Positions 13,348-64,000 of a stretch of 64,000 nt of DNA are shown here, piece by piece. The DNA comes from an uncultured Gaiellales bacterium (GTDB lineage Bacteria > Actinomycetota > Thermoleophilia > Gaiellales > Gaiellaceae), in contig CAYGLV010000002.1 in the NCBI GenBank assembly GCA_964351025.1, positions 20,454 to 84,453 on the forward strand. The letters run 5' to 3'. Below the pieces are notes generated by a model. It was not told where the DNA came from, ran no database searches, and was given only the letters and a program-made list of their open reading frames with translations. Every line of letters begins with the position of its first letter. The stretch's first letter is position 1. A program made the position numbers and the translations under genes.

Positions 13348-14273
13348 AGGCTCTCACCGTCGGCGAGTCGATGGCGCTCCTCGACCCCGTCGCCGGCGGG
13401 CGTCCGACCGTGGGGGCGACCCTCACCCTGCGGGTGGCGGGCGCCGAGTCGAACTTCGCCGTCGGGCTCGTGCGGCTCGGCATCGACGTGGCATGGGCGT
13501 CGCGCGTCGGGCGGGACGCGCTCGGCGACGCCCTCCTCGACGCGCTCGGCACAGAGGGGATCGACCTGAGTCTCGTGCGGCGGGACGACAGCGCCCCAAC
13601 CGGCCTGTTCCTCAAGTGGCGGGACCGCGGCAGGAGCCACGTCGCGTACTACCGCCGTGGCAGCGCCGCCTGCGGGATCGAGCCCGCAGACGTGCCGGAC
13701 GAGGCGCTGGAGGGCGTCGCGCTCGTCCACCTGACCGGGATCACGATGGCCCTCTCGGACACGGCGCGGGCGCTCGTGGTCGACCTCGCCGCGCGTGCCT
13801 CCGCGCGCGGCATCACCGTGCTCTTCGATCCGAACTGGCGCCCGGCGCTGTGGTCGGGCCCCGCGGAGGCGGCGGCCGCCCACGGCGAGGTGCTGCCGCA
13901 CGTCGACTGGTACCTCTGCGGGTCGGAGGAGGGACGCCTGCTCTTCGGCACCGAGACCGACGAGCAGACGCTCGAGGCTGCGTGCGCCGCCGGGGCCGGC
14001 GACGCCGTGGTCCGCATCGGCGAACGCGGTGCCCTCGTCCGCCGCGACGGCCGGATCGTCACCGTTCCGCCCCGACGCGTCGTCGACGTCCGCGACGAAG
14101 TCGGCGCCGGGGATGCCTTCGCGGCCGGCTTCGCCTACGGCCTGCTGCACGGAGGCTCTGTGGAGGCGTGCGCCGCCGCCGGGAACACCATCGCCGCGAC
14201 GGCGCTGGCGGGTACCGGCGACTGGGAGACGCTGCCGCGTCTCGAGGACGTGCGCGGCGAGCTCGAGCTCTAG
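13344..14273 (+). CDS. PfkB-family sugar kinase (2-dehydro-3-deoxygluconokinase-like)
   Basis: GAESNFAVGLVRLG N-terminal motif and C-terminal DEVGAGDAFAAGF motif. ATGA overlap with the upstream gene. Confidence 0.8.
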   Translation: MKALTVGESMALLDPVAGGRPTVGATLTLRVAGAESNFAVGLVRLGIDVAWASRVGRDALGDALLDALGTEGIDLSLVRRDDSAPTGLFLKWRDRGRSHVAYYRRGSAACGIEPADVPDEALEGVALVHLTGITMALSDTARALVVDLAARASARGITVLFDPNWRPALWSGPAEAAAAHGEVLPHVDWYLCGSEEGRLLFGTETDEQTLEAACAAGAGDAVVRIGERGALVRRDGRIVTVPPRRVVDVRDEVGAGDAFAAGFAYGLLHGGSVEACAAAGNTIAATALAGTGDWETLPRLEDVRGELEL

Positions 14274-15757
14274 CCCGGGGCTGCCGCCGTCTCCCTGTGC
14301 GCGTACGTGCCGAACCACGGCCGCAGCTGCTCGAACACGGCGCTGGCGGTGAGCAGGTCGGCGTCCGCGTGGCGCTTCCCGATGAGCTGCATGCCGACCG
14401 GCAACCCCTCCTCGGTAAGTCCGGCCGGAATCGACGCCGACGGGTGGCCCGAGAAGTTCGTGAAGTACGTCATGCACCAGCCGATCAGCGGGTCGACCTC
14501 CACGCCGTTGATCTGGCGTGGGCCGACCGTGTTGCCGTCGTCGGTGTTCTTCACCGCCACGTCGGCGACCGTCGGCGTCACGAGCAGGTCGTAGTCGGCG
14601 AAGACGGCCTGGATCGCGTCGTAGATCTCGGTGCGCATCTGGTGGTCGCGCGCCAGGTCAGGCAGGCCCCAGGTGTAGGCCTCGTCGACCCAGCGCAGGT
14701 ACTCGGGCGGGAAGTCGTCCCGGTGGTCGCCGATCAGGTCGAGGCCGTTCGCCTTGAAGCCCTCGAGCGTCTCGATGTTCGGCCACATGACCAACCGGCA
14801 CCAGAGGTCGCTCAGCTCGCGCTGGTCGCGCTGGATTCCGAGCGAGACCTCCTCGACTGTCGCTCCCGCTTCCTCGAAGGCGCGTACTGCGCTCGCGACG
14901 GTCTCCGCCACGCGCCCGTCGACGGGGTAGACGTCGAAGTTCGGGCTGTAGGCGATGCGCCAGCCCTCGACGGACCCGCGTAGCGCTGCGGCGAAGTCGA
15001 CCTGCTCGTCCAGGCTGTACGGGTCGCGCGGGTCGTAGCCGGAGAGCGCGGTGAGCGCCAGCGCGGCGTCCTCCACCGTGCGCGTGATCGGCCCCTCGAA
15101 GAGGAAGGGGAACGTGCCGGTGAAGCCGCCGGGGCGGATGACCATCGGGACGCGACCCCACGACGCCTGGTAGCCGTAGACGCCGCACCAGGCCGCGGGG
15201 ATGCGGATCGAGCCGCCGGCGTCGGTGCCCTCCGCGAACGGCACGAGCCCGTCGGCGACGGCGGCCGCGCTGCCGCCGGACGAGCCGCCCGAGTTTCGTG
15301 ACAGGTCGAACGGGTTGCAGGTCGGCCCGAACAGGAAGTTGTCACAGGTGCCGCGGAAGCCCATCGTCGGGCTGTTCGTCTTGCCGAGGATGATTGCTCC
15401 GGCGCGCTCGACCCGCTCGGCGAAAACGCAATGGAAATCCGTCGTGAAGGTCTTCAGCGCCCTCACGCCCCCAAGCGTCGCCGGCCAGCCGGGCTTGAAG
15501 TCGAAGAGGTCCTTGATCGCGGTCGGGACACCGTGGAGCGGGCCCACCTCCTCGCCGGCGGCGAGTGCGCGCTCCGCTTCCTGCGCCGCTTGCCGCGCCT
15601 CGTCGAAGCCGAGGTGGATGAAGGCGTTCAGGCGCCCGTTGCGCGCCTCGATCCGCTCGATCGCGCCGTCGACCACCTCGACCGGCGACAGCTCGCGACT
15701 CCGGATCCGTGCTGCGAGCTCCGCCGCGCTCACGTATGCCAGCTCGTCCTGCGCCAT
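14270..15757 (-). CDS. amidase-signature (GatA-like) amidase
   Basis: GGSSGGSAAAVA and GTDAGGSIRIPAAWCG signature. ATG at 15757 preceded by GGAGAGGGGG. Confidence 0.85.
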   Translation of the reverse strand: MAQDELAYVSAAELAARIRSRELSPVEVVDGAIERIEARNGRLNAFIHLGFDEARQAAQEAERALAAGEEVGPLHGVPTAIKDLFDFKPGWPATLGGVRALKTFTTDFHCVFAERVERAGAIILGKTNSPTMGFRGTCDNFLFGPTCNPFDLSRNSGGSSGGSAAAVADGLVPFAEGTDAGGSIRIPAAWCGVYGYQASWGRVPMVIRPGGFTGTFPFLFEGPITRTVEDAALALTALSGYDPRDPYSLDEQVDFAAALRGSVEGWRIAYSPNFDVYPVDGRVAETVASAVRAFEEAGATVEEVSLGIQRDQRELSDLWCRLVMWPNIETLEGFKANGLDLIGDHRDDFPPEYLRWVDEAYTWGLPDLARDHQMRTEIYDAIQAVFADYDLLVTPTVADVAVKNTDDGNTVGPRQINGVEVDPLIGWCMTYFTNFSGHPSASIPAGLTEEGLPVGMQLIGKRHADADLLTASAVFEQLRPWFGTYAHRETAAAPG

Positions 15758-15871
15758 GACGCCCCCTCTCCTTCGGGATTGTGTTGCGATCCTAATACCC
15801 GGCGATGCGGCGGAGCGACCTGATCGTCTCGCGCCCACCGCCCGCGAACGGCGCTGCCGGTCGCCACATAG

Positions 15872-15897
15872 AAAAGCCCCACCGGGGCGGGGCTTTT
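15872..15897 (-). terminator. Rho-independent-type terminator hairpin just 3' of rnpB
   Basis: AAAAGCCCC...GGGGCTTTT inverted repeat. On the minus strand the stem is followed by UUUUC. Confidence 0.6.
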
Positions 15898-15900
15898 CCG

Positions 15901-16224
<324 letters not shown>

Positions 16225-53113: not shown

Positions 53114-53980
53114 GTGCTCGCCGTTGCCTTCGCGGTGCTGGCGGCGGCGCTCTTCGGGGCCCTCGCCCTGGCCATCCGGTCGGGCCTCAAGCGGGGCGGC
53201 GATCCCGAGGCGGGGGCGCTCGTGGTCACCGGGGTCGGCTTCCTCGTCGGAGCGGCGCTCTCGATCCCGGAGCTTCTGAGCGGCATCAGCCTCTCCGAGC
53301 TCTGGCTCTTCGCGCTCATCGGGGCTCTCGTGCCCGGCGCCTCTCAGATCCTCTTCATTCTCGCGGTGCGCGACGCGGGGCCGTCGCGTGCCGCCATCCT
53401 CATCGGCACCGCACCGTTGATCTCGGTTGTCATGGCTCTGGTGCTACTCGGGGAGCCCTTCCGCCCGCTGCTGCTCGTCGGCACGGCCCTGATCGTCGCG
53501 GGCGGCGCGACCCTCGCGGGGGAGCGAGCGCGGCCTGCCCACTTCAGGGCGATCGGGGCCGTGCTCGCGCTGGCCTGCGCCGCGCTGTTCGCGGTGCGGG
53601 ACAACGCCGTGCGCTGGGCGGCGCAGGACGTGCACCCGCCGGCGCTCACCGCCTCGGCAGCCTCGCTGCTGGCCGCCGCCGCGGCCGTGGGCCTCTACCT
53701 CCTCGTCGTGCGGCGCGAGGGCCTATCCGGAAAGCTCCGTGCCGCGCTGCCGGCCTTCGCCGCCGCGGGCGTCACGCTCGGCCTCGCCTACGCCAGCCTG
53801 CTCGAGGCGTTCGACCACGGGCGCGTGAGCATCGTCGCCCCCCTGAACGCCACCCAGTCTCTCTGGGCGGTGATCCTGGCCGCGGTGCTGATCGGGAGGA
53901 GCGAGATGATCGGCGCCCGGACGGTGTTCTCCGGCCTGCTCGTGGTCGCGGGCGGGGCGATGATCAGCGTCCTGCGCTGA
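53114..53980 (+). CDS. DMT superfamily (EamA) transporter
   Basis: 10-TM-like profile. GTG at 53114. Confidence 0.7.
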   Translation: MLAVAFAVLAAALFGALALAIRSGLKRGGDPEAGALVVTGVGFLVGAALSIPELLSGISLSELWLFALIGALVPGASQILFILAVRDAGPSRAAILIGTAPLISVVMALVLLGEPFRPLLLVGTALIVAGGATLAGERARPAHFRAIGAVLALACAALFAVRDNAVRWAAQDVHPPALTASAASLLAAAAAVGLYLLVVRREGLSGKLRAALPAFAAAGVTLGLAYASLLEAFDHGRVSIVAPLNATQSLWAVILAAVLIGRSEMIGARTVFSGLLVVAGGAMISVLR

Positions 53981-55019
53981 GCGAGACGGCCTCCGCGACC
54001 GCGTCTCCGACCTGGCGGGTGGTCGCGGTCCCGCCGATGTCGCGCGTGCGCGGGCCTTCGCGGCAGACCTGCTCCAGAGCCTCCAACAACGTCCGCGCCG
54101 CGTCCCCCTCGCCGAGCTCGTCGAGCATCAGCGCCGCGCTCCAGATCGCCCCCGCCGGATTGGCGATGCCCAGACCTGCGATGTCGGGGGCCGATCCGTG
54201 CACCGGCTCGAACAGGCCGGGCGTCGTCGACCCGGGCGCGAGGTTCGCGCTCGCCGCCGTGCCCATCCCGCCCTGGATCGCGGCGGCGAGGTCGGTGAGG
54301 ATGTCGCCGAAGAGGTTTGAGGCGACGACGACGTCGAGGCTGCCCGGGTCACGAACCATCCGCGCCGCGAGCGCGTCCACGAGCACCCGCTCGTAGCGCA
54401 CGGCCGGGAACTCGGCGGCGAGCTGCTCGGCCACCTCGTCCCAGAGCACGTACCCGAAGCGCGAGGCGTTCGACTTCGTCGCGCTCGTGACGACGCCGCG
54501 CCGCGCCGCGGCGAGCTCGAACGCGTACCGGATGACGCGCTCGACACCCGCCCGCGTGAACACGCTCGTCTCGACGGCAACCTCCGAGGCGAGGCCGCGG
54601 TGCGCCCTGCCGCCGATCCCGGAGTACTCGCCCTCGGTGTTCTCCCGGACGAACAGCATGTCGACGTCGGCCGGCCCCCGGCCGGCCAGCGGGCAGGGGA
54701 TCCCCGCGAGCAGGCGCGCCGGCCGCACGTTCGCCCACAGGTCGAGACGCTGGCGGACGTCGAGGATCAGCTCCCAGAGCGAGACGTGGTCGGGCACGGA
54801 CGGATCTCCGACCGCGCCCATCAGCACGGCGTCGTGCGCGCGCAGGGTCTCGAGTGCGTCCTCCGGCATCATCCGCCCGTGCTCGTGCCGGTACGCCGAG
54901 CCCCAGGGGAGCTCTGTCCACTCGAGCGAGAGGCCCAGCGCGTCGACTGCGCGCCGGGCCTCCGCGATCACTTCAGGGCCCACCCCGTCGCCGGGGAGCA
55001 GGGCGACCCTGTGCGTCAA
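53964..55019 (-). CDS. isocitrate/isopropylmalate dehydrogenase family enzyme (tartrate dehydrogenase/decarboxylase-like)
   Basis: LLPGDGVGPEV, FVRENTEGEYSG, NLFGDILTDLAA, HGSAPDIAG. Its TTG at 55019 overlaps the upstream TGA. Confidence 0.85.
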   Translation of the reverse strand: MTHRVALLPGDGVGPEVIAEARRAVDALGLSLEWTELPWGSAYRHEHGRMMPEDALETLRAHDAVLMGAVGDPSVPDHVSLWELILDVRQRLDLWANVRPARLLAGIPCPLAGRGPADVDMLFVRENTEGEYSGIGGRAHRGLASEVAVETSVFTRAGVERVIRYAFELAAARRGVVTSATKSNASRFGYVLWDEVAEQLAAEFPAVRYERVLVDALAARMVRDPGSLDVVVASNLFGDILTDLAAAIQGGMGTAASANLAPGSTTPGLFEPVHGSAPDIAGLGIANPAGAIWSAALMLDELGEGDAARTLLEALEQVCREGPRTRDIGGTATTRQVGDAVAEAVSLSAGR

Positions 55020-55657
55020 GCCGCCGCGCCCACGCTTGCCACGAACGCGAGCGCTTCCTCGAGCCCGACGACATCGGCGTACTTCGCCTGGATGTCGAAC
55101 AGGTTCGCCTCGTGCGGCGCCTGCGCCCGGTCGCCCACGCACTCGCGCGGGACGATCGTCGGGAAGCCGTACTGCAGCAGGTCGACCGCCGTGGCGCGAA
55201 TGCAGCCGCTCGTGGTGGCCCCGCAGAGGATGACGGAGTCCACCCCCTGGGCGATCAGGATCGAGGCCAGGTTCGTGCCGAAGAACGCCGAGGCGCCCTT
55301 CTTCAGCACCACCGGCTCGCCGGGCTGCGGGTTGAGACGTGCGTCGATCTCCACCCAGCGGCCGCCGATCTGGAGGTCGCCGAGGGCGGGCACCTTCTGC
55401 AACCAGAGCGCGCCGTCCTTCAGGCTCGGCTCGAAGCCGATCGTCGTGTAGACGATCGGCAGCCCCTTTCTCCGGGCGGCGTCGAGCAGCCGCCTCGTCG
55501 CTTCGACCTCCTTCGTCAGGTCGGAGCCGAGCGTGCAGGCCGGATCGGTGAAGCCGCAGCTGAAGTCGACCACGAGCACGGCCGGCCTGGAGCCGAGCGT
55601 GACGCTCTGCCCCAGGCCCGCGCGCTCATAGACCTGCTGTGCCTGCTCGTCGCTCAT
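55016..55657 (-). CDS. isochorismatase-family cysteine hydrolase (N-carbamoylsarcosine amidase / biuret hydrolase-like), paralogue of 36888..37499
   Basis: AVLVVDFSCGF, KKGASAFFGT, VILCGATTSGCIRATAVD. Confidence 0.82.
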   Translation of the reverse strand: MSDEQAQQVYERAGLGQSVTLGSRPAVLVVDFSCGFTDPACTLGSDLTKEVEATRRLLDAARRKGLPIVYTTIGFEPSLKDGALWLQKVPALGDLQIGGRWVEIDARLNPQPGEPVVLKKGASAFFGTNLASILIAQGVDSVILCGATTSGCIRATAVDLLQYGFPTIVPRECVGDRAQAPHEANLFDIQAKYADVVGLEEALAFVASVGAAA

Positions 55658-55664
55658 CGCCGCC

Positions 55665-57071
55665 TCAACCCGTCAGCTGCTCGCCGAAGCGGGCGCGCTT
55701 CACGAACTGCCCGTGCCCGGCCTCGACGACAAGCGTGTCGTTCTCGACGACGACCGTGCCGCGGACGAGCACGACCTCGGGGGCGCCGGTGACCTTCTCG
55801 CCCTCGAACAGGTTGTAGTTCACGTTCGTGTGGTGCGTGGCCGCGGAGATCGTGACCTTCTTCTCCGGGTCCCACACGACGATGTCCGCGTCTGCGCCCG
55901 GTGCGATCGTGCCCTTGCGCGGGTAGAGGCCGAACAGCTTCGCCGGGTTCGTCGACACGAGCTCGACGAAGCGGTTGAGCGAGATGCGGCCGGTGCGCAC
56001 GCCGTGCGTGTAGAGCATGTGCAGCCGGTTCTCGATCCCCGGTCCGCCGTTCGGGATCACCTGGAACTCCTTGCCGTTGATCCCCTTCTGCTCGGGCCAG
56101 TTGAACGGGCAGTGGTCGGTCGAGAGGACGGAGAGCACGTCGGAGCCGAGCGCCTTCCAGAGGTGCTCCTGCTCCGCCTTCGGCCGGGGCGGCGGCGTGT
56201 ACACGTACTTCGCGCCCTCGAAGTTCGGCTTCTCCAGTGCCGTGTCGTCGATGAAGAGGTACTGCGTGCAGGTCTCGCCGTGCACGTTCCAGCCCTTCTC
56301 GCGTGCGAGCGCGATCGGCTCGACGGACGGCTGGCAGGAGACGTGGACGACGTACAGCGGCGCGCCGGTGACGCGCGCCAGCTGGATCGCCCGGTTCGTC
56401 GCCTCGGCCTCGGTCTCCATCGGGCGCGTGCGCGCGTGCCAGATCGGCTCGGTCTTGCCCTCGGCAACGGCCTTCTTGACGATCAGGTCGATGGCGTCGC
56501 CGTTTTCGGCGTGCACCATCACGAGGGCGCCGGTGTCGGCCGCGACCTCCATGACCTTGAAGAGCGTCTCGTCGTCGACCATGACCGCGCCCTTGTACGC
56601 CATGAAGAGCTTGTACGAGGTGATGCCCTCGTCCGGCAGCTTCGCGAGCTCCTCGAGCGTGCCGCCCTCGCGGAGGTCGGTGACTGCGATGTGGAAGCCG
56701 ACGTCGATCACCGGCTTGCAGCGGTCGATCTTCTCGTAGTAGTTGTCGAGCGCCTGCCTGAACGAGGTTCCCGGCGCCTGGACGCAGAAGTCGACGAGCG
56801 TCGTCGTGCCGCCGAACGCCGCCGCGGTCGTCCCGGACGTGAAGTCGTCGATGGTCGTCGTGCCGCCGAAGAACATCTCGATGTGCGTGTGCGGGTCGAT
56901 CGCGCCCGGCATCACGATCTTGCCGGTCGCGTCGATCACCTTGTCGGCGCCGACGTCGAGCGACTCGCCGATCAGGGAAATCCTCCCGTCGGCGATGAAG
57001 ATATCTCCGACGTAATCATCTGAAGCCGTGACGATTCGGCCTCCCTTGATGAGCACGGACATCAGGCTCAC
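55665..57071 (-). CDS. dihydropyrimidinase / D-hydantoinase
   Basis: GAIDPHTHIE, SYKLFMAYKG (carboxylated Lys), VHAENGD, STDHCPF. GTG start at 57071. Confidence 0.9.
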   Translation of the reverse strand: MSLMSVLIKGGRIVTASDDYVGDIFIADGRISLIGESLDVGADKVIDATGKIVMPGAIDPHTHIEMFFGGTTTIDDFTSGTTAAAFGGTTTLVDFCVQAPGTSFRQALDNYYEKIDRCKPVIDVGFHIAVTDLREGGTLEELAKLPDEGITSYKLFMAYKGAVMVDDETLFKVMEVAADTGALVMVHAENGDAIDLIVKKAVAEGKTEPIWHARTRPMETEAEATNRAIQLARVTGAPLYVVHVSCQPSVEPIALAREKGWNVHGETCTQYLFIDDTALEKPNFEGAKYVYTPPPRPKAEQEHLWKALGSDVLSVLSTDHCPFNWPEQKGINGKEFQVIPNGGPGIENRLHMLYTHGVRTGRISLNRFVELVSTNPAKLFGLYPRKGTIAPGADADIVVWDPEKKVTISAATHHTNVNYNLFEGEKVTGAPEVVLVRGTVVVENDTLVVEAGHGQFVKRARFGEQLTG

Positions 57072-57093: not shown

Positions 57094-57107
57094 GGTTGTA
57101 TACAACC
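57094..57107. promoter_or_regulatory. perfect 14-bp palindrome GGTTGTATACAACC, operator-like, 23 nt upstream of the hydantoinase start
   Basis: An AT-rich perfect palindrome in a 51-nt intergenic gap of an otherwise GC-rich locus. It fits the GntR-type GT-Nx-AC operator pattern. Confidence 0.5.
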
Positions 57108-57122
57108 GCGGACCGGGCGCCG

Positions 57123-58442
57123 TCAACCGAGGTCGGGCGGGCGGCGCTCGTGCCAGTCGGTTGCGCGCTGAAACGCGTGGCCCGCCCGCAGGACCGTCTC
57201 GTCGGCGTGGCGAGCGCCCACGAGCGCGAGACCGACGGGAAGCCCGTCGACGAAGCCGCACGGAACGCTGAGCACCGGGAGCCCCGCGAGGCTCCAGGGC
57301 GAGTTGAACGGGATCACCGCGAGGCGGAAGGCGATCCGCTCGCCGCCGAGCTCGACCTCGTTCTCGCCGATGCGGGGGGCCACGATCGGCATGGCCGGTG
57401 CGGCGAGCACGTCGAACCGCTCGAAGAGGCGGCTCACTCCCTCGCAGTACGCCCGGCGTGCTCGCAGGCCCGTCACGTACGCCGTCGCGGGCAGGAACAG
57501 CCCGGCGAGCAGCCGGGCGCGAACGTCGGCGCCGTAGTCTGCGAGGCGCGTCCGCAGCCACTCGAGGTGCGCGTTTGACGCCTCGGGGAGCATGACGAGC
57601 TGCTTGATCGTCCCTGCCTCCGCGAGCATCGGCACCTCGACCGCTTCGGCGGTCGCTCCGAGCGCGACGAGCGACGCTACCCCCGTCCTCGTCGCGTCCG
57701 CGACGCGCGGGTCAGCGAGGTCGAGCAGCGCCTCGACGACGCCGATCCGCAGCCCCTTGACCCCACCCTCGACGACGCTCCGCGTCCCGGCGATCGCGTC
57801 GAGGAGCAGAGCGCAGTCCTCCGCGCTGCGCGCGATCGGCCCGACCGCGTCGAACGTCCAGGAGACGGGCACGACGCCGTGGTTGGGCACGAGCCCGGAC
57901 GACGGCCGCAGGCCGGTGACGCCGCAGAAGGAGGCCGGGATCCGGATCGAGCCGGCCGTGTCCGTGCCGAGCGTGCCGGCCGCGAGCCCCGCTGCCGTCG
58001 CGGCCCCGCTGCCGCCGCTCGAGCCGCCGCAGATGCGATCGAGCGACCAGGGGTTGTGCGCAGGGCCGAAGTGCGGGCTCGTCGTCATCGCCCCGAACGC
58101 GAACTCGTGGGTATTGAGCTTGCCGACGACGATCGCACCGGCTGCACGCAGGCGCTCGACGACCGTGGCGTCGCGAATCGCGACGTTGTCCGCCAGGATG
58201 CGCGAGGCTGCCGTCGTGCGCGACCCGGCGACGTCGATCACGTCCTTGACCGCCACGGGAACGCCGTAGAGGGGGCCGCGTGGCGGCGCCTCGGCTTCGG
58301 CGAGTGCCTCCTCGGCGCGTACCGAGATGTACGCGTTCAGCTTGCCGTCCAGGCGCTCGATCCGGTCGAGCGTGGCCTGCACGGCTTCGCGAGGCGACAG
58401 CACGCCTGCCTTCAGCTCTTCCGCAAGACGGGCGAGGCTCAT
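57123..58442 (-). CDS. amidase-signature amidase (GatA/AtzE-like)
   Basis: GGSSGGSGAATAAG and GTDTAGSIRIPASFCG. Confidence 0.88.
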   Translation of the reverse strand: MSLARLAEELKAGVLSPREAVQATLDRIERLDGKLNAYISVRAEEALAEAEAPPRGPLYGVPVAVKDVIDVAGSRTTAASRILADNVAIRDATVVERLRAAGAIVVGKLNTHEFAFGAMTTSPHFGPAHNPWSLDRICGGSSGGSGAATAAGLAAGTLGTDTAGSIRIPASFCGVTGLRPSSGLVPNHGVVPVSWTFDAVGPIARSAEDCALLLDAIAGTRSVVEGGVKGLRIGVVEALLDLADPRVADATRTGVASLVALGATAEAVEVPMLAEAGTIKQLVMLPEASNAHLEWLRTRLADYGADVRARLLAGLFLPATAYVTGLRARRAYCEGVSRLFERFDVLAAPAMPIVAPRIGENEVELGGERIAFRLAVIPFNSPWSLAGLPVLSVPCGFVDGLPVGLALVGARHADETVLRAGHAFQRATDWHERRPPDLG

Positions 58443-58612
58443 ACGGGCGTCTCCGGGGGAAGCGTTTGCTCGATCTCGGCGAGCGCCGGCAGGATCACGT
58501 TCAGGAAGCCGAGCACGGCCTCCAGATCGGCGTCGTCGGGAGCGACGCCCTGGCGCGCCGCAAGCTCTCGCAGAAACTCGAGCGTGGGTGGCAGGTTAGA
58601 CTCGGAGGCCAT
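58439..58612 (-). CDS. 57-aa GatC/AtzG-like (DUF4089-like) small partner ORF of the amidase; not in the supplied ORF track
   Basis: Hand translation: MASESNLPPTLEFLRELAARQGVAPDDADLEAVLGFLNVILPALAEIEQTLPPETPV. Its TGA overlaps the amidase ATG (ATGA). Confidence 0.5.
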   Translation of the reverse strand: MASESNLPPTLEFLRELAARQGVAPDDADLEAVLGFLNVILPALAEIEQTLPPETPV

Positions 58613-58802
58613 GCCGATCTACGAGTATCGCTGTGATGCGTGCGAGGCGCGCTTCGAGGAGTACCTCTCGACCTCCGACAAGCCTGCCCCGCCCTGCCCC
58701 GAGTGCGCGTCGAAGAAGGTGACGAAGCTGATGTCGCCCATCAACACGGAGTGGCTGCCGAGCGACGTCGCCTGGGACCGCGTCGGGCGCTCCTGGGACT
58801 GA
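58611..58802 (+). CDS. FmdB-family zinc-ribbon protein (CxxC_CxxC_SSSS type)
   Basis: MPIYEYRCDACEARFEEY...CPECASKKVTKLMS is the canonical family N-terminus and double CxxC. Confidence 0.85.
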   Translation: MPIYEYRCDACEARFEEYLSTSDKPAPPCPECASKKVTKLMSPINTEWLPSDVAWDRVGRSWD

Positions 58803-58946: not shown

Positions 58947-59306
58947 TTACGCCGGCTTCGCGTAATTCGACATGCCGGTGACATCCAGGATGACGCACTG
59001 TCCGTCGCCGGCGATCCACGCATCGTGTCCCGAGGGCATATGGAAGGCGTCACCCGGCCCGTACTCGACCTCGTCGCCGTCGTCCATCCGCACCACCATG
59101 CGGCCCTCGAGGACGTACCCGGTGTGCGCAGCCTGGCAGGAATCAGTCCCGGCGACCGGCTTCACGTGCTCGGACCAGCGCCAGCCGGGCTCGAAGACCC
59201 CACGTCCGATCTGGAGCTCGCCGACAGCAACGATCTCCACCTTGCCCTTGCTGAAGGCCCGCGTGTCGTCCGGGGTTTCGAAACGCTTCTTCACGAGACC
59301 AGCCAT
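58947..59306 (-). CDS. cupin domain protein
   Basis: G.FEPGWRWSEH...HTGYVLEGRMVVRMDDGDEVEYGPGDAFHMPSGHDAW. GGAGG RBS before the ATG at 59306. Confidence 0.75.
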   Translation of the reverse strand: MAGLVKKRFETPDDTRAFSKGKVEIVAVGELQIGRGVFEPGWRWSEHVKPVAGTDSCQAAHTGYVLEGRMVVRMDDGDEVEYGPGDAFHMPSGHDAWIAGDGQCVILDVTGMSNYAKPA

Positions 59307-59547
59307 TCGTGACCTCCTTCTTCGTGATCCAGACGGTCGAGTCTGGTCGAAATAGACCACACAGTCAAAGCGACGGTTAGGGCGCCGCGAACATGACGCT
59401 GGTCAAGAGACCTGACGATCGCCTGGGCAAGTGTTCAGGAATGTCGCCTGACCGCGTTACCCGGGCAGCGGGCGGTCTCCGTGTCCATCCGATTGCTAGG
59501 AGGGCTTGGCGAAACGGGTCGCCGGCACAGCGGCCCCCTCGAAAGGG

Positions 59548-59808: not shown

Positions 59809-60003
59809 AGCCGGTGAAAAGGTCGAGCCGCCCGGCTCGCTGGGTGACCCGCTCAGCGGAACGAACGTGCCTGGCCCTGCAAGTCGAATCCTGTTCGCCT
59901 AGGCTCCTCGTCTCGCGCGCCAGAGCGCGTCGGCAGGCTTCGGGCTTTCGGCCGGGGTTCTGGCCGCAGGGCCAGTTGGAGCCAGTCTACTCCTGGCGTC
60001 GGC

Positions 60004-61212
60004 CTAGCCGAACACGCCCGAGTCGGCGAGCTCACGCAGACGCTCCGGCCCGTAGCCGCAGAGCTCGCTGAGCACCTGCTCGGTGTGCTCGCCGCGGAAG
60101 GGCCCACGCTCGGCCGGCCGCTCGAGCGACTCCGCGCCGTCGGAGAGCCGCAGCGGCGTCCGGATCGAGCGCACCCGCCCGAGCGTCGGGTGGTCGTGCT
60201 CGACGATGTCGTCGCGCGCGACCGTCTGCGGGTCCTCGAGCGCCTCCTCGACCGAGTTGACGCGGGCCGCCGGGATCCCGGCCCCCACAAGCGCTTCGAG
60301 CCAGTCCTCGACGGCCCGCTCCTTGAAGACCCGGGCGAGCTCGGGCACGAGCACGTCGCGGTGCTCGTTGCGGCCGCTCATCGTCGCGAACCGGGGGTCG
60401 GCGGCGAGGTCGGGTCGGCCGATCGCCTCGCACAGCTTCTCCCAGAACTTCTGCTTTGCGGCGGCGACGACGAGCCAGCCGTCCGCGGCCTCGAAGTTCT
60501 GGAAGGGGACGATCGTCGGGTGCGCGGAGTCCGGGCGCCGCGGCGGGACGTAGCCGTGGGTCGCCGCCCAGGGGCCGATGTACATCAGCTCGTGCAGCGC
60601 CGTCTCGAACAGGGACACGTCGCAGTCGCACCCGACCCCGTCGCGCCGCGCCCGCCAGATCCCCGAGAGCAGCGCGATCGCGGAGGCGTATCCGCCGGAG
60701 AGGTCCACGAGCGAGAGGCCGCTCTTCGTCGGCGGCCCACCGGGCTCGCCCGTCAGGCTCATCCACCCGGCGAGCCCCTGCATCATGTAGTCGTAGCCGC
60801 CCTCCCCGGCGCGCGGCCCGGTCATCCCGAAGCCCGAGAGCGAGCAGCAGACGATCCTCGGGTTGACGTCCCGGAGCTGCTCGTACGTGAGGCCGAGCTT
60901 CTGCGGCTGGTCGCCCCGGAGGTTCGAGTAGACCGCGTCGGCGGCGCGGACGAGGTCGTGGAAGACCGCGCGCGCGCCGGGGTGGCGGAAGTCGAGCGAG
61001 ATGCTCTTCTTGCCACGGTTGAACGTCTCGAAGAAGAGCGAGCTCTCGTCCTCCTGAAAGGGTGGCACGTACCGGCCAACGTCGCCCTGTGAGGCCGGGT
61101 CTTCGATCTTGATCACCTCGGCGCCGAGGTCGGCGAGCTGGAGCGTGCCCCAGGGCCCCGCCCCGAACTGCTCGACCGCCAGCACGCGGATGTCGGCGAG
61201 CGGCAGCGTCAC
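60004..61212 (-). CDS. family III (CaiB/BaiF) CoA-transferase
   Basis: IRVLAVEQFGAGPWGTLQLADLGAEVIKIE, SNLRGD. Its GTG overlaps the GntR TGA. Confidence 0.85.
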   Translation of the reverse strand: MTLPLADIRVLAVEQFGAGPWGTLQLADLGAEVIKIEDPASQGDVGRYVPPFQEDESSLFFETFNRGKKSISLDFRHPGARAVFHDLVRAADAVYSNLRGDQPQKLGLTYEQLRDVNPRIVCCSLSGFGMTGPRAGEGGYDYMMQGLAGWMSLTGEPGGPPTKSGLSLVDLSGGYASAIALLSGIWRARRDGVGCDCDVSLFETALHELMYIGPWAATHGYVPPRRPDSAHPTIVPFQNFEAADGWLVVAAAKQKFWEKLCEAIGRPDLAADPRFATMSGRNEHRDVLVPELARVFKERAVEDWLEALVGAGIPAARVNSVEEALEDPQTVARDDIVEHDHPTLGRVRSIRTPLRLSDGAESLERPAERGPFRGEHTEQVLSELCGYGPERLRELADSGVFG

Positions 61213-61940
61213 CCTCTCTCCGCCGCCTTGACCGCGTGGCGCCAGGCCTTCTCGTAGAACGGCCGTAGAAACTCAAGGTGCGAGCCCATCTCGCGCTCGG
61301 CCGCGCGCGCGTCGCCGGCCTCGATCGCCGCGGTGATCGCCCGGTGCTGGTCGTTGATCGAGCGGTGGAAGCGCTGGCCCAGCGACGAGCGAGCCAGGTT
61401 CGTCTGCAGGACGGAGAAGACGGGCTGGGCCGCGACGGTCAGCAGGACGTTGCCGCACGTCTCGATCACGACCGAGTGGAACTGCTCGTTGAAGGCGAAC
61501 TGATCGAGCGTCGAGAGCTCGAGCGGACTGGTCGGGATCGCCTCCTTGAGGCGGACGATGTCTGCCGCCTTGCGCCGCTTCGCCGCGAGGCCCGCGGCAG
61601 GCACCTCGAGCGCGGCGCGGGCCTCGAGCAGCTCCTCGAGCGAGACGTCCTGCGCCTTGGTGAGCAGGTCCAGGCTGGAGCGGAGGAACTCCGAGATGTG
61701 GTCGGCGGTCGGCATGGTCACGTAGCTCCCGCCGCCCGCTCCCTTCGCGGTGTGGATCAGTCTCTGCGCCGCCAGGTGGCGCAGCGCCTCCCGCACGGTG
61801 GCCCGGCTGACGCCGAACTCGTGCGCGAGCGTGTTCTCGTTCGGCAGCCGCTCGCCCCGGGCGAGCTCTCCGTGCACGATCAACTCGTAGAGCTGGTCGG
61901 CGACCTGCTCGTACGCCTTCCGCACCCGTCGGACTCCCAT
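61209..61940 (-). CDS. GntR family transcriptional regulator (FadR/FCD subfamily)
   Basis: LPNENTLAHEFGVSRATVREALRHLAAQRLI wHTH plus FCD-like C-terminus. Confidence 0.85.
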   Translation of the reverse strand: MGVRRVRKAYEQVADQLYELIVHGELARGERLPNENTLAHEFGVSRATVREALRHLAAQRLIHTAKGAGGGSYVTMPTADHISEFLRSSLDLLTKAQDVSLEELLEARAALEVPAAGLAAKRRKAADIVRLKEAIPTSPLELSTLDQFAFNEQFHSVVIETCGNVLLTVAAQPVFSVLQTNLARSSLGQRFHRSINDQHRAITAAIEAGDARAAEREMGSHLEFLRPFYEKAWRHAVKAAERG

Positions 61941-61978
61941 GGAGCTCGTCGGGCGCTCGACGGGGCGCAGGCGCCCGT

Positions 61979-63889
61979 CTATCGGAGACCGAACTCCTCG
62001 TTGCCCGCGACGCTCGCTGGGGCGGACGACGGCGGCAGCCCCCGCTCGGCGAAGTGCTCCGTCAGCGATCGCCCCCTCGGCGTGCGGCGCAGCTCCTCTC
62101 GGAGGGCCGTGGTCGCAGCCACGTCGATCTCGAGCGACACCTCGTCGACGAAGACGACTCCGTACGCGTCGCGGGCGAGCTCGAGCGTCGTGAAGTCGTC
62201 GAGCACGTCCTCCCGCACCATGTCGGGAACCCGTTCGAGGGGGTCCCCGTAGCCCGCCGCGTTGGGCTCCCGGAACTCGATGAACTCACCCGCGGCGAAC
62301 GGGATGCCCGTCACCTTCGCCGGCAGCGCTTCCTCGGCCTCCGTGTCCGGGTTCTTGCGGCAGGACGCAACGAGGCCGTCCCAGCCGCCGAACACGGCCT
62401 TCGGCGAATCGGTCTGCCGGTCGCCCTCGCACGAGTACGTCCCGTCGACGAGGAAGCGGTTGCGACGGATGATCCCGATGCCGCCCCGCCACTTCCCGGG
62501 CGCGGCCGGCTCCGGCCGCAGCTCGTACTGATCGCACCGGACCGGGAAGCGCATGTCCAGCTCCTCGATCGGGTTGTTGCGCGTGTTCGCCATCAGGTTG
62601 TCGACCGAGTCCATCGCGTCCTTGCCGTACCTGCCCCCGTACGAGCCCTCGTTCACCTCGAGGTAGAGCCAGTACTGGCCGACCTCGTCGTCGAAGCCTG
62701 CGTAGGCGCAGAAGTGGATGCCCGCCGAGTTGCCGCCGGTGACCTGCTGCGGAAGGGCCTCGGCGAGCGCGAGGATCGTGTTGTCGACGACGCGCTGCAC
62801 CTGGGTGAAGCGCGAGAAGCACGCACGCGGGAAGTTCGGGTTGAAGATCGTCCCCTTTGGGGCGATCACCTTGACGGGCCGGAAGACGCCGTCGTTCTGC
62901 GGCACGTGCTCCGGGAACGTGACCTCGTCGAGGAGGATCGTGCGCACGGCGTAGTAGGCGCCGACGAGCAGCGAGCCCTCGAAGGGCACGTTGAAGCCCG
63001 TGGGCACCTCGGGGTGCGAGCCCGTGAGGTCGATCGTGATCTCGTCACCCTCGACGATCACCCGCGTCTCGACGCGGAGCCGGACGTCGCGGTTCCGCGC
63101 ATCGTCGTCCAGCCAGCCGACGACGGGGCCGTAGACGCCGTCCGGGATCTTTGCGATCTCCGTGCGCAGCATCCGCTCCGAGTAGTCCATCCACTCGTAG
63201 GCGGCGCTCATGACGATGTCTGCGCCGTACCGGTTGACAAGGCGGAGGAAGCGCTCCTTCCCCAGCTGGCAGGCGGCGAGCATCGCGTTCATGTCGCCCC
63301 GGTTCATCGTCTCGGTGCGCACGTTGTCGAACAGCATCCGGTCGAGGTCCTCGTTCAGCTCGCCCCGCCGGTACCAGCGCAGGCCGTTGTAGAGCTTGGC
63401 CTCCGCGTAGACGTCGAAGGCGTCCGCGTTGATGCCCGGGTACGACCCGCCGACGTCGAGGACGTGGGCTGTGACCGCGGCGAAGCCGAGGAGCTCGCCC
63501 TCGTGGAAGATCGGCACGGCGACGGCGATGTCGGGCGAGTGCGAGGCGCCGAGGTACGGGTGGTTGTGGACGATCACGTCGCCTTCCTCGATCTCCCCGC
63601 CGAGGCGGTGGAGGAAGCCGCGGATGTACCAGGGCAGGGAGCCGATGTGCATCGGCGTCGAATCGGACTCGCACAGCTCGCGTCCCTCGGCGTCGAAGAT
63701 GCCGGCCCCGAGGTCCTCGGACTCGCGGATGATGGACGAGTAGCTCATCCGGAAGAGCACGCCGGCCATCTCCTTCGCGATCGCGTGGTACGCGCCGCCG
63801 AGCACCCGCAGCGTGATGGGGTCGACCTCGACGCGCCGGCGGGCGGGTGGCCCCGGCTGGCGCCCGACCTCGTAGTCGATCACAGACAT
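61979..63889 (-). CDS. hyuB: hydantoinase B/oxoprolinase subunit (HyuB family), second copy
   Basis: DPITLRVLGGAYHAIAKEMAGVLFRMSYSSIIRESEDLG, PGKWRGGIG. Confidence 0.88.
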   Translation of the reverse strand: MSVIDYEVGRQPGPPARRRVEVDPITLRVLGGAYHAIAKEMAGVLFRMSYSSIIRESEDLGAGIFDAEGRELCESDSTPMHIGSLPWYIRGFLHRLGGEIEEGDVIVHNHPYLGASHSPDIAVAVPIFHEGELLGFAAVTAHVLDVGGSYPGINADAFDVYAEAKLYNGLRWYRRGELNEDLDRMLFDNVRTETMNRGDMNAMLAACQLGKERFLRLVNRYGADIVMSAAYEWMDYSERMLRTEIAKIPDGVYGPVVGWLDDDARNRDVRLRVETRVIVEGDEITIDLTGSHPEVPTGFNVPFEGSLLVGAYYAVRTILLDEVTFPEHVPQNDGVFRPVKVIAPKGTIFNPNFPRACFSRFTQVQRVVDNTILALAEALPQQVTGGNSAGIHFCAYAGFDDEVGQYWLYLEVNEGSYGGRYGKDAMDSVDNLMANTRNNPIEELDMRFPVRCDQYELRPEPAAPGKWRGGIGIIRRNRFLVDGTYSCEGDRQTDSPKAVFGGWDGLVASCRKNPDTEAEEALPAKVTGIPFAAGEFIEFREPNAAGYGDPLERVPDMVREDVLDDFTTLELARDAYGVVFVDEVSLEIDVAATTALREELRRTPRGRSLTEHFAERGLPPSSAPASVAGNEEFGLR

Positions 63890-63900
63890 CGCGTTGCCCC

Positions 63901-64000
63901 CTAGACGGTCGCGACGCGAGTCGCCGCGGCGATCGCGCCTGCCTCGGCTGATGCGCCGATTTCGATGATGATGTTCCCGAAGCGGTCGACGTGGGCGGAG
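63901..64000 (-). CDS. hyuA: hydantoinase/oxoprolinase A subunit (HyuA family), last 32 codons only; 5' part outside the window
   Basis: The C-terminal ...SAHVDRFGNIIIEIGASAEAG... parallels the C-terminus of the first HyuA (ATVDTNYNILITP). It sits directly upstream of hyuB. Confidence 0.5.
   Translation of the reverse strand, partial: SAHVDRFGNIIIEIGASAEAGAIAAATRVATV

What the first reader, a model, noticed from the sequence alone, without database searches (positions are those of the whole stretch)
58439..58612. Unlisted 57-codon GatC/AtzG-like ORF translationally coupled to an amidase-signature enzyme
This ORF is below the length cutoff of the supplied track.
- The minus strand from ATG 58612 encodes MASESNLPPTLEFLRELAARQGVAPDDADLEAVLGFLNVILPALAEIEQTLPPETPV.
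- Its stop overlaps the amidase start (ATGA at 58439-58442).
- Amidase-signature enzymes are known to need small helical partners: GatA needs GatC, and 1-carboxybiuret hydrolase AtzE needs AtzG.
- This peptide has the size, position, and Leu/Ala/Asp/Glu-rich helix followed by a Pro-rich tail expected of such partners.
- The other amidase in the window (14270..15757) has no such upstream ORF.
Basis: partly seen in the sequence, partly recalled or inferred. Interest (0 to 1): 0.6.

Follow-up and report, generated by a model that had tools for sequence, protein, structure and literature searches.

The report
Small GatC-like partner of an amidase
The 57-codon reading frame is a real, conserved gene that most likely encodes a small non-catalytic helper subunit for the amidase made right after it, a known design (GatC-GatA, AtzG-AtzE) in a sequence family that current databases do not recognise.

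Summary
The minus strand 58612..58439 encodes the 57-aa peptide as written, and its TGA overlaps the amidase ATG (ATGA).

The ORF is a real gene:
- It has relatives in 38 protein clusters at 90% identity and 95 at 50%.
- 35 Gaiellaceae/Thermoleophilia genome loci carry it, always directly before the amidase.
- An NTGA stop/start overlap is present in 31 of 31 clean loci.
- Median dN/dS is 0.44, variation is concentrated at the third codon position, and GC3 is 0.86.

No Pfam or NCBIfam model is hit, including GatC PF02686 and AtzG-like PF13318.

Evidence that it is GatC-like:
- Profile-profile comparison aligns the whole peptide with the N-terminal half of GatC (probability 77%, E 2e-5, above all 200 shuffles). 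The match to AtzG is weak.
- AlphaFold predicts helix-loop-helix plus a Pro-rich tail. GatC chains lead a non-significant Foldseek list.
- The partner amidase is closest to AtzE and GatA.
- The genome has a separate gatCA.

Best reading: a truncated GatC-type scaffold or folding subunit of an AtzE-like amidase in a hydantoinase operon. This is a new member of a known kind and of moderate interest.

The parts
58439..58612 (-). Mini gene, 57 codons plus TGA. Predicted GatC-like small subunit: helix 11-20, loop, helix 27-48, then a Pro-rich tail.
   Evidence: sequence; family; synteny; dN/dS 0.44; AF2 pLDDT 85.6; hhalign to GatC.
58439..58442 (-). ATGA: the mini stop (TGA) overlaps the amidase start (ATG), giving translational coupling.
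   Evidence: An NTGA overlap is present in 31 of 31 related loci (28 GTGA, 2 ATGA, 1 TTGA).
58451..58454 (-). GGAG inside the Pro-Pro-Glu codons of the mini gene, 8 nt before the amidase ATG. Likely Shine-Dalgarno site for the amidase.
   Evidence: GGAG or GAGG lies within the last 18 nt of the mini gene in 23 of 31 loci.
57123..58442 (-). Amidase-signature enzyme, 439 aa, AtzE/GatA-like. The catalytic K66, S141 and S165 motifs (AVKDV, GGSSGG, GTDTAGSIR) are present.
   Evidence: PF01425; AtzE family best, 343 bits, below the 461 cut-off; GatA 254 bits, AtzE 235 bits; motifs; Foldseek best hit AtzE, for the 73%-identical L035 homologue.
55665..57071 (-). Dihydropyrimidinase / D-hydantoinase, the next gene in the operon.
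   Evidence: TIGR02033, 597 bits, above the 393 cut-off. Follows the amidase in all loci that extend far enough, bar two.
55016..55657 (-). Isochorismatase-family cysteine hydrolase, 213 aa, with weak matches to BiuH and RutB.
   Evidence: An isochorismatase gene occupies the same position in L037.
53964..55142 (-). Tartrate-dehydrogenase-like decarboxylating dehydrogenase. The true start is probably about 40 codons downstream of the listed GTG.
   Evidence: TIGR02089, 482 bits, match from residue 43. Conserved in 21 loci.
58611..58802 (+). Divergent FmdB-family zinc-ribbon gene, 63 aa. Its ATG overlaps the mini ATG as CATG at 58610-58613.
   Evidence: PF09723, TIGR02605; present in 34 loci; CATG in 24 of 31.

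Best explanation
The 57-aa product is a small, non-catalytic, GatC-type partner of the amidase encoded immediately downstream.

Proposed mechanism:
- The two genes are translated from one mRNA. The mini stop overlaps the amidase start, and the amidase's Shine-Dalgarno site lies inside the last mini codons. Both chains are therefore made together, at the same place and in similar amounts.
- The peptide's two amphipathic helices and Pro-rich tail pack onto the amidase core, as the N-terminal half of GatC packs on GatA and as AtzG packs on AtzE. This keeps the amidase folded and soluble, probably as a 2:2 complex.
- It is a cut-down GatC. It lacks the C-terminal half that contacts GatB in the tRNA amidotransferase, and there is no GatB partner here.
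- The holoenzyme probably deaminates a ureido or carboxy-amide product of the ring-opening dihydropyrimidinase/hydantoinase encoded next in the operon.

Shown: the gene is real, it is conserved, it is coupled to the amidase, its predicted fold is helix-loop-helix, its profile resembles GatC, and the amidase is AtzE/GatA-like.

Inferred: physical binding, the stabilising role, the stoichiometry and the substrate.
For: 1. Real gene under purifying selection:
- 38 clusters at 90% identity and 95 clusters at 50% identity, nearly all 43-72 aa.
- Median dN/dS 0.44, third-position variability, GC3 0.86.

2. Obligate neighbour of the amidase:
- 35 of 35 genome loci from Gaiellaceae/Thermoleophilia MAGs have the amidase directly downstream.
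- An NTGA overlap is present in 31 of 31 clean loci, and an SD within the mini's last 18 nt in 23 of 31.

3. Remote homology to GatC:
- hhalign of the 69-sequence family profile against 11 Gaiellales GatCs: probability 66.6%, E 5.4e-5, score 28.6, against a maximum of 21.1 in 150 column shuffles.
- Against 40 Actinomycetota GatCs: probability 76.7%, E 2.1e-5, 55 columns, mini 1-57 aligned to GatC 1-52, null maximum 25.7 of 200.
- The accepted homologues AtzG and GatC score only 15.8 and 12.5 in the same tests.

4. Fold:
- AF2 pLDDT 85.6, with helices at 11-20 and 27-48.
- The Foldseek top hit is GatC 9a62_B (TMq 0.62). Chains 4wj3_C, 3kfu_J/G, 2df4_C and 2dqn_C are in the top 25, although no match is significant.

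5. The partner belongs to the clade that uses such subunits:
- AtzE family is the best NCBIfam hit.
- GatA and AtzE are the best PDB sequence hits.
- AtzE 6c6g_A is the best structural hit, E 2.6e-34.

6. Bridging cases:
- Amidase relatives on Azospirillum, Aminobacter and Burkholderia plasmids also have 69-74-aa upstream ORFs that overlap the amidase start.
- The Aminobacter ORF matches the mini family, AtzG and GatC alike (probability 45, 43 and 36%).
- The Azospirillum ORF matches the mini family at 82%.

7. The genome has its own canonical gatC followed by a gatA-like gene elsewhere. This pair is therefore a paralogous module.

8. Literature:
- AtzE is insoluble without AtzG, and AtzEG is thought to derive from GatCA (PMC6219798).
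- GatA is unstable without GatC or GatF (PMC4027206).
Against: - The window protein hits nothing in Pfam or NCBIfam, and no Pfam hit to GatC or AtzG-like appears for any of 69 family members, even at E<=10.
- A sequence profile of the family finds no GatC or AtzG chain in the PDB.
- Foldseek matches are not significant (best E 1.2). A two-helix hairpin is a common shape.
- The hhalign probability is moderate and not decisive. The AtzG link is weak (probability 10%; score 19.3 is below the shuffle maximum of 22.4).
- No direct evidence of binding exists. No complex could be modelled with the tools at hand.
- The one in-frame mini-amidase fusion (L035) is a 1-nt frameshift in a long-read MAG and is not a true fusion.
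- In the AF2 model of that fusion the mini part has only pLDDT 63-78 and the linker is below 50.
Confidence: 0.72

Rival explanations
1. The ORF is a leader or upstream ORF whose translation matters but whose product does not. It would serve only to load ribosomes onto the amidase start by termination-reinitiation on a leaderless mRNA, and the peptide would have no function of its own.
For: - An NTGA overlap is present in 31 of 31 loci.
- No SD lies upstream of the mini in 31 of 31 loci, and the start codon is ATG in 28 of 31. This is consistent with a leaderless mRNA on which the first ORF must begin at the 5' end.
- The amidase SD lies inside the mini's conserved PPE codons.
Against: - The amino-acid sequence is conserved over 95 clusters at 50% identity, with invariant or near-invariant L14, R15, A18, G22, D29, L30, F36, L41, P42, L44 and E48.
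- dN/dS is 0.44, with third-position variation.
- AF2 predicts a confident fold.
- The family profile resembles GatC.
- A pure coupling ORF would not keep its residues.
Confidence: 0.08
2. The peptide is a detached or duplicated copy of the amidase's own N-terminal helices, arising by gene fission or partial duplication. It would complement the amidase core in trans, and it would not be a GatC derivative.
For: - There is a local 10-column hhalign match between mini EAVlgFLnvI and amidase EAVQatLDRI (score 20.2, null maximum 14.6).
- MAFFT spontaneously aligned amidase N-termini onto the mini.
- About half of the related loci carry a short amidase of 387-412 aa that lacks the first ~50 residues. 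Mini plus short amidase roughly equals the long amidase in length.
Against: - The match covers only 10 columns, against 41-55 columns for GatC.
- The window's amidase, and all long-type amidases, keep their own N-terminal helices and still have the mini gene.
- Proteobacterial upstream ORFs bridge the family to AtzG and GatC.
Confidence: 0.1
3. The peptide is a small regulatory or adaptor protein acting on something other than the amidase. One candidate target is the divergent FmdB zinc-ribbon protein, which is conserved next to it. Another is the hydantoinase.
For: - The fmdB gene is the divergent neighbour in 34 loci, with overlapping start codons in 24 of 31.
- From my own knowledge, FmdB-type proteins were first described next to an amidase (formamidase) gene as putative regulators.
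Against: - The tightest and invariant linkage is to the amidase (4-nt overlap).
- Analogous small ORFs precede related amidases on proteobacterial plasmids that have no fmdB or hydantoinase beside them.
- All 35 loci come from one bacterial order, so synteny with fmdB may simply be inherited.
Confidence: 0.05
4. The ORF is a chance open frame in GC-rich DNA and is not a gene.
For: - High-GC genomes carry many spurious ORFs. The antisense + strand frame 57879..58802 is open across the same region.
- There is no database family hit.
Against: - The frame, the residues and the stop/start overlap are conserved in 35 species-level genomes.
- dN/dS is below 1.
- The codon-position signature fits this frame.
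- Supported.
Confidence: 0.02

Closest known systems
GatC, small subunit of the tRNA-dependent amidotransferase GatCAB (Pfam PF02686; PDB 2df4_C, 3kfu, 4wj3_C, 9a62_B)
   Same: - It is encoded directly upstream of a GatA-like amidase-signature gene, and the genes are coupled.
- The N-terminal helix-loop-helix followed by a Pro-containing segment aligns in register (mini 1-57 to GatC 1-52, hhalign probability 77%).
- GatC chains lead the Foldseek list.
- GatC stabilises GatA (PMC4027206).
   Different: - It has 57 aa against about 95. The C-terminal half, which runs on to GatB and closes the ring, is absent.
- There is no GatB partner in the operon.
- It does not reach the Pfam model at any threshold.
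- The genome has a separate genuine gatCA.
- Its partner is a catabolic amidase in a hydantoinase operon, not a glutaminase for tRNA transamidation.
AtzG-AtzE, 1-carboxybiuret hydrolase of Pseudomonas sp. ADP (pADP-1 atzDGEHF; Pfam PF13318 AtzG-like; PDB 6C62/6C6G)
   Same: - A small (68 aa) non-catalytic protein is encoded just upstream of an amidase-signature enzyme derived from GatA. It is required for that enzyme's solubility (PMC6219798).
- The partner here is most like AtzE by NCBIfam and by structure.
- The operon logic is also alike: a ring-opening amidohydrolase plus downstream amidases.
- Distant members of the mini family carry a C-terminal VPAGLFLP tail that resembles AtzG's AEIYRPAPFP.
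   Different: - There is no match to PF13318, and hhalign probability is only 10%.
- The window protein ends at PPETPV and lacks the invariant C-terminal motif.
- No atzH (DUF3225) or atzD/atzF neighbours are present. The neighbours are a dihydropyrimidinase and an isochorismatase-type hydrolase.
- The host is Actinomycetota (Gaiellales), whereas the AtzG-E-H clusters described so far are in Proteobacteria.
GatF N-terminal domain, fungal mitochondrial GatFAB (PMC4027206)
   Same: [quoted passage not shown] This shows that small helical segments with little sequence similarity can take the GatA-stabilising role.
   Different: - It is eukaryotic and is part of a 183-aa subunit that also contains a GatC-like portion.
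- No sequence relationship to the mini family was tested here.
Unannotated 69-74-aa ORFs upstream of amidases on Azospirillum, Aminobacter and Burkholderia plasmids (WP_040138221.1, WP_192321429.1, BBQ02399.1, all 'hypothetical protein')
   Same: - Each lies immediately upstream of a 40-44%-identical amidase, with a 4-11-nt overlap.
- None hits any Pfam model.
- The Azospirillum and Aminobacter proteins match the mini-family profile (probability 82% and 45%).
   Different: - They are longer, from different phyla, and in different operon contexts (TRAP transporter, flavin oxidoreductase, nitrile hydratase).
- The Burkholderia ORF shows no detectable similarity.

Membership tests
GatC (Pfam PF02686, Glu-tRNAGln amidotransferase C subunit) | Scores above the Pfam gathering threshold (23 bits) with the family HMM | tested here: not met
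   No hit for the window protein at E<=1. None of 69 family members hits PF02686 at E<=10. The genome's true GatC scores 73 bits.
GatC (Pfam PF02686, Glu-tRNAGln amidotransferase C subunit) | N-terminal two-helix segment homologous to GatC helices 1-2 | tested here: met
   hhalign probability 66.6% and 76.7%, E 5.4e-5 and 2.1e-5, 41-55 columns in register. Scores exceed all 150 and all 200 column-shuffled nulls. AF2 predicts helices at 11-20 and 27-48. The support is moderate and not conclusive.
GatC (Pfam PF02686, Glu-tRNAGln amidotransferase C subunit) | Full length of about 95 aa, with a C-terminal segment that contacts GatB | tested here: not met
   The protein ends at residue 57, aligned to GatC residue ~52. 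Local GatCs are 93-100 aa.
GatC (Pfam PF02686, Glu-tRNAGln amidotransferase C subunit) | Works with GatA and GatB in tRNA transamidation | tested here: not met
   The downstream genes are a hydantoinase and an isochorismatase-type hydrolase, not gatB. A separate gatC-gatA pair exists at G000:C41. Activity itself cannot be tested here.
GatC (Pfam PF02686, Glu-tRNAGln amidotransferase C subunit) | Structural similarity to solved GatC chains | tested here: inconclusive
   GatC chains rank 1, 12, 17, 21, 22 and 24 in Foldseek with TMq 0.53-0.62, but the best E is 1.2.
AtzG-like (Pfam PF13318, formerly DUF4089) | Scores above the Pfam gathering threshold (24 bits) | tested here: not met
   No hit. 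None of 69 family members hits the model at E<=10. The own genome and 12 relatives have no match over the cut-off. Genuine AtzG relatives carry PF13318.
AtzG-like (Pfam PF13318, formerly DUF4089) | Profile-level homology to AtzG | tested here: inconclusive
   hhalign probability 10.2%, E 0.0031, 56 columns in register. The score of 19.3 is above the 95th percentile (15.5) but below the maximum (22.4) of 150 shuffles.
AtzG-like (Pfam PF13318, formerly DUF4089) | Invariant C-terminal motif E-x-A-E-I-Y-R-P-A-P-F-P | tested here: not met
   The motif is invariant in 16 AtzG relatives. The window protein ends ...LPPETPV. Some distant family members have a VPAGLFLP tail.
AtzG-like (Pfam PF13318, formerly DUF4089) | Encoded directly upstream of an AtzE-family amidase | tested here: inconclusive
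   The position is met (ATGA overlap). The amidase's best NCBIfam hits are the AtzE models, but at 343 and 334 bits they fall below the cut-offs of 461 and 426. AtzE is the best Foldseek hit.
AtzG-like (Pfam PF13318, formerly DUF4089) | Forms an obligate complex with the amidase and is needed for its solubility | not testable with these tools
   This is known for AtzG-AtzE (PMC6219798). Here it needs co-expression or multimer modelling.
AtzG-like (Pfam PF13318, formerly DUF4089) | atzG-atzE-atzH cluster, with a DUF3225/NTF2 gene downstream | tested here: not met
   The gene after the amidase is a dihydropyrimidinase (TIGR02033), followed by an isochorismatase-family hydrolase.

The most novel reading that the evidence does not exclude
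GatC-derived mini-subunits may be a general, ancestral and largely unannotated feature of the whole GatA/AtzE-like clade of catabolic amidases. On this reading they have split into many sequence families that Pfam and NCBIfam miss. In Gaiellales the partner may be so integral that about half of the amidases have lost their own first ~50 residues (the short type) and rely on the mini protein in trans. Many 'amidase' annotations would then describe only half of a two-subunit enzyme, and these enzymes would fail when expressed alone.
Probability: 0.3. Interest if true: 0.6.

Novelty: new member of a known kind. Interest (0 to 1): 0.38.

Why it matters
Small partner genes such as this one fall below most ORF-length cut-offs and have no family model, so the amidase is annotated as a stand-alone enzyme.

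If the peptide is needed for folding, as AtzG is for AtzE and GatC is for GatA, heterologous expression of these soil amidases will fail unless the mini gene is included. They are candidates for carbamoylase-like steps in hydantoin or pyrimidine-type nitrogen-heterocycle breakdown.

The family also extends the 'vestigial GatC' design from proteobacterial AtzEG to Actinomycetota. It supplies intermediate sequences that link AtzG, GatC and several unnamed families, which could seed a proper superfamily model.

Tried and rejected
- **Pfam and NCBIfam scans.** Nothing was found for the window peptide, and Pfam found nothing for 69 family members.
- **Family profile against PDB sequences.** It returned only spurious de novo TIM-barrel repeats and no GatC or AtzG chain.
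- **Foldseek on the peptide model.** No match was significant. I use the GatC ranking only as a weak pointer.
- **Long proteins among the representative hits.** P0114 (464 aa) and P0132 (532 aa) are Arg/Ala-rich frameshift artefacts. P0060 and P0110 look like fusions but are contig-end fragments I could not examine.
- **L035 as a natural fusion (490 aa).** I rejected it as Rosetta-stone evidence. Frame +1 still reads the normal tail SPPDASP*, so it is a 1-nt indel in a long-read MAG.
- **L035 as a vehicle for AF2.**
  - MAFFT misplaced the mini rows, so the model was run with amidase rows only.
  - The mini segment got pLDDT 63-78 and the linker below 50.
  - The tool gives no contacts or PAE, so docking could not be judged.
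  - The model did confirm that AtzE is the nearest structure.
- **69-aa ORF upstream of the second amidase (15730..15939).** It looks like noise.
- **Sigma-70 promoter scan around the CATG.** Nothing was found.
- **Esquirol 2018 JBC paper (PMC5961051).** It is not held. I relied on the same group's PLoS One paper instead.
Full report
**1. Observation**

The minus strand from ATG 58612 reads MASESNLPPTLEFLRELAARQGVAPDDADLEAVLGFLNVILPALAEIEQTLPPETPV and stops at TGA 58441-58439. The amidase ORF (57123..58442, 439 aa; PF01425, E 7e-105) starts at ATG 58442-58440, so the two genes share ATGA. A GGAG at 58454-58451, inside the Pro-Pro-Glu codons, lies 8 nt before the amidase ATG. No other in-frame ATG, GTG or TTG is available near the 5' end of the mini frame.

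**2. Is it a gene?**

Yes.

- A word-indexed search of 5.8 billion proteins found 38 clusters of 52-69 aa at 56-100% identity.
- These have invariant L14, R15, A18, D29, L30, F36, L41, P42, L44 and E48.
- An exhaustive HMMER search with that profile found 95 clusters at 50% identity, nearly all 43-72 aa.
- A scan of one genome per species returned 35 loci, all from Gaiellaceae, Thermoleophilia or unclassified Actinomycetota MAGs.
- In all 35 the match is followed at once by the amidase. A dihydropyrimidinase follows in all but two of the loci that extend far enough. In 34 the match is preceded on the other strand by an FmdB zinc-ribbon gene.
- In the 31 sequences compared (30 loci with a clean frame plus the window) the mini stop overlaps the amidase start: 28 GTGA, 2 ATGA, 1 TTGA.
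- Pairwise Nei-Gojobori estimates over 27 sequences give median dN 0.39, dS 0.84 and dN/dS 0.44.
- Column entropy is 0.69/0.73/1.12 and GC content is 0.80/0.47/0.86 at codon positions 1/2/3.
- That is the signature of a translated frame in a high-GC genome. The open antisense frame 57879..58802 is the usual shadow that shares the wobble position.

**3. What is it?**

*Database models.* Direct family searches fail.

- The window protein hits no Pfam or NCBIfam model at E<=1.
- None of 69 diverse family members hits GatC (PF02686) or AtzG-like (PF13318, the former DUF4089) at E<=10.
- A family profile finds no GatC or AtzG chain among PDB sequences.
- The genome and its relatives have no PF13318 protein. 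Each has one ordinary GatC.
- In the window's genome that GatC is followed by a GatA-like gene 37% identical to this amidase.

*Profile-profile comparison.* This gives a different picture.

| Comparison | Probability | E-value | Score | Columns | Shuffle null |
|---|---|---|---|---|---|
| Mini family (A2, 69 sequences) vs 11 Gaiellales GatCs | 66.6% | 5.4e-5 | 28.6 | 41 | mean 10.5, max 21.1 (150) |
| Mini family vs 40 Actinomycetota GatCs | 76.7% | 2.1e-5 | 30.6 | 55 | max 25.7 (200) |
| Mini family vs AtzG relatives (A3) | 10.2% | 0.0031 | 19.3 | 56 | 95th percentile 15.5, max 22.4 (150) |
| AtzG vs GatC (yardstick) | 1.6% and 0.5% | 0.031 and 0.13 | 15.8 and 12.5 | 33 and 27 | not run |

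- Against the diverse GatC set, mini residues 1-57 align with GatC residues 1-52, ending at GatC's conserved V-P-P-T.
- The reversed GatC alignment scores 12.4.
- AtzG and GatC are accepted as relatives on structural grounds, yet they score lower than the mini family does against GatC.

*Fold.*

- AlphaFold2 with the family alignment gives pLDDT 85.6, with helix 11-20, a six-residue loop, helix 27-48 and an extended Pro-rich tail.
- Foldseek finds nothing significant for so small a model (best E 1.2).
- However, the first hit is GatC (9a62_B, TMq 0.62), and five more GatC chains are in the top 25.
- The second hit is the Rhodococcus N771 amidase 3a1k. I did not check which part of that chain aligns.

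**4. The partner**

- The amidase has the Lys-cisSer-Ser motifs at K66, S141 and S165.
- Its best NCBIfam matches are the two AtzE-family models, at 343 and 334 bits. Both are below their cut-offs of 461 and 426, so it is not an AtzE equivalog.
- Its best PDB sequence matches are GatA (254 bits) and AtzE 6c62_A (235 bits).
- An AF2 model of the 73%-identical homologue in L035 is closest to AtzE (6c6g_A, E 2.6e-34, TMt 0.85), then to GatA.
- The enzyme therefore sits among the amidase-signature proteins known to need a small subunit.
- The other amidase in the window is 32% identical, scores best with a different model (PRK06169) and has no credible upstream ORF.

**5. Beyond Gaiellales**

- Four plasmid-borne amidases 40-44% identical to this one were inspected.
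- Three (Azospirillum, Aminobacter, Burkholderia) have an annotated 'hypothetical protein' of 69-74 aa that overlaps the amidase start by 4-11 nt. None has a Pfam hit.
- The Azospirillum protein matches the mini-family profile at 82% probability.
- The Aminobacter protein matches the mini family, AtzG and GatC alike (45, 43 and 36%), in one register.
- The Burkholderia protein matches nothing.
- Distant members of the mini family carry a C-terminal ...VPAGLFLP... tail that recalls AtzG's invariant AEIYRPAPFP. The window protein has lost this tail.
- Together these results suggest a continuum of GatC-derived partners, of which Pfam captures two islands.
- Earlier notes of this scan report many similar pairs in other phyla. 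They agree with this reading, but they are unchecked leads and not evidence.

**6. Mechanism proposed**

*What the literature establishes.*

[quoted passage not shown] - GatA is unstable and must be co-expressed with GatC or GatF (PMC4027206).

*What I infer by analogy and from the anatomy.*

- The 57-aa protein is made first and the amidase is made by coupled reinitiation. This fits the NTGA overlap and the SD inside the PPE codons.
- The two helices then bind the amidase core and keep it folded.
- The protein lacks the GatB-contacting half of GatC, and the operon has no gatB. Its role would therefore be purely that of a scaffold or chaperone-like subunit.

*Operon context.* The gene order is:

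1. mini
2. amidase
3. dihydropyrimidinase/D-hydantoinase (TIGR02033, 597 bits)
4. isochorismatase-family hydrolase (weakly BiuH/RutB-like)
5. tartrate-dehydrogenase-like enzyme

This points to breakdown of a cyclic ureide or amide. The amidase plausibly removes the terminal amide nitrogen of the ring-opened ureido acid. An amidase-signature N-carbamoylputrescine amidohydrolase was described recently (PMC12283126), so this chemistry has a precedent. The substrate remains a guess.

**7. Rivals**

- **Pure coupling or leader ORF.** The residue-level conservation and the predicted fold contradict it.
- **Detached or duplicated amidase N-terminus.**
  - There is a hint in its favour. A 10-column match links mini EAVxxFLxxI to amidase EAVQxYLDRI (score 20.2, null maximum 14.6).
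  - About half of the loci have amidases of 387-412 aa that lack the first ~50 residues.
  - However, long-type amidases, including the window's, keep those helices and still have the mini gene. The GatC alignment is also much longer.
- **Partner of FmdB or another protein.** This cannot be excluded, but it lacks support outside this one order.
- **Chance ORF.** It is excluded as far as comparative data can go.

**8. Limits**

- No binding evidence exists.
- The only in-frame mini-amidase fusion (L035) is a 1-nt frameshift in a long-read MAG. Its AF2 model gives the mini segment only moderate confidence, and no interface read-out is available.
- All 35 genome loci come from one order, so synteny beyond the mini-amidase pair may simply be inherited.

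**9. Verdict**

It is wrong in its expectation that GatC or DUF4089 models would recognise the protein.

The design is known. The sequence family is unnamed, its members being labelled at most 'hypothetical protein', and the window's copy is a truncated form. Interest is moderate. The practical message is that these amidases should be annotated and expressed as two-gene units.

Noticed in passing
window 58610-58613 (CATG); related loci L002-L034: The mini gene and the divergent FmdB zinc-ribbon gene start head to head with overlapping ATGs, so there is no intergenic DNA. The CATG overlap is kept in 24 of 31 sequences compared. The mini start is ATG in 28 of 31, and no SD-like motif lies within 20 nt upstream in 31 of 31. 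This suggests leaderless mRNAs with each promoter inside the other gene. A sigma-70 consensus scan found nothing.
   Followed up: partly
L004, L005, L007, L009-L011, L014-L016, L020, L021, L024, L031 (amidase genes directly after the mini gene): About half of the related loci carry a short amidase of 387-412 aa. It lacks the first ~50 residues (two N-terminal helices) of the window's enzyme and begins VTLDPFNAFLH. It keeps the GTGA overlap with the mini gene. Mini plus short amidase roughly equals the long amidase in length.
   Followed up: partly
window 58490-58522 (mini residues 31-40) and 58356-58388 (amidase residues 19-28): There is a local motif resemblance between the mini protein (EAVLGFLNVI) and the amidase's own N-terminal helix (EAVQATLDRI). 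The hhalign score is 20.2 over 10 columns, above all 150 shuffles.
   Followed up: partly
window 55016-55657 (-): An isochorismatase-family hydrolase gene (PF00857, E 7e-35; weak BiuH and RutB matches) lies between the hydantoinase and the tartrate-dehydrogenase-like gene. It overlaps the listed GTG start of the latter, whose true start is probably about 40 codons further in.
   Followed up: partly
window 57094-57107: An AT-rich perfect palindrome, GGTTGTATACAACC, lies in the 51-nt gap between the amidase stop and the hydantoinase start. It stands out in very GC-rich DNA and may be an operator within the operon.
   Followed up: no
L059:2277-2486, L060:2281-2490, L061:2266-2490 (Azospirillum, Aminobacter and Burkholderia plasmids): Annotated 'hypothetical proteins' of 69-74 aa overlap the start of related amidase genes and have no Pfam family. 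Two of them are detectably related to the mini family, and one also to AtzG and GatC.
   Followed up: partly
L035:4980-6452; also L006, L019, L028, L034, L036: Several long-read MAG loci show frameshift-split or artificially fused genes. The L035 mini-amidase 'fusion' comes from a 1-nt indel. Apparent fusions in these assemblies should not be read as domain fusions.
   Followed up: yes
window 59900-64000 (-): Upstream on the same strand lie a GntR/FCD regulator, a family III CoA-transferase and a hydantoinase B/oxoprolinase-type gene, plus a cupin at 58947-59360. This block is also conserved near the mini-amidase pair in many relatives.
   Followed up: partly
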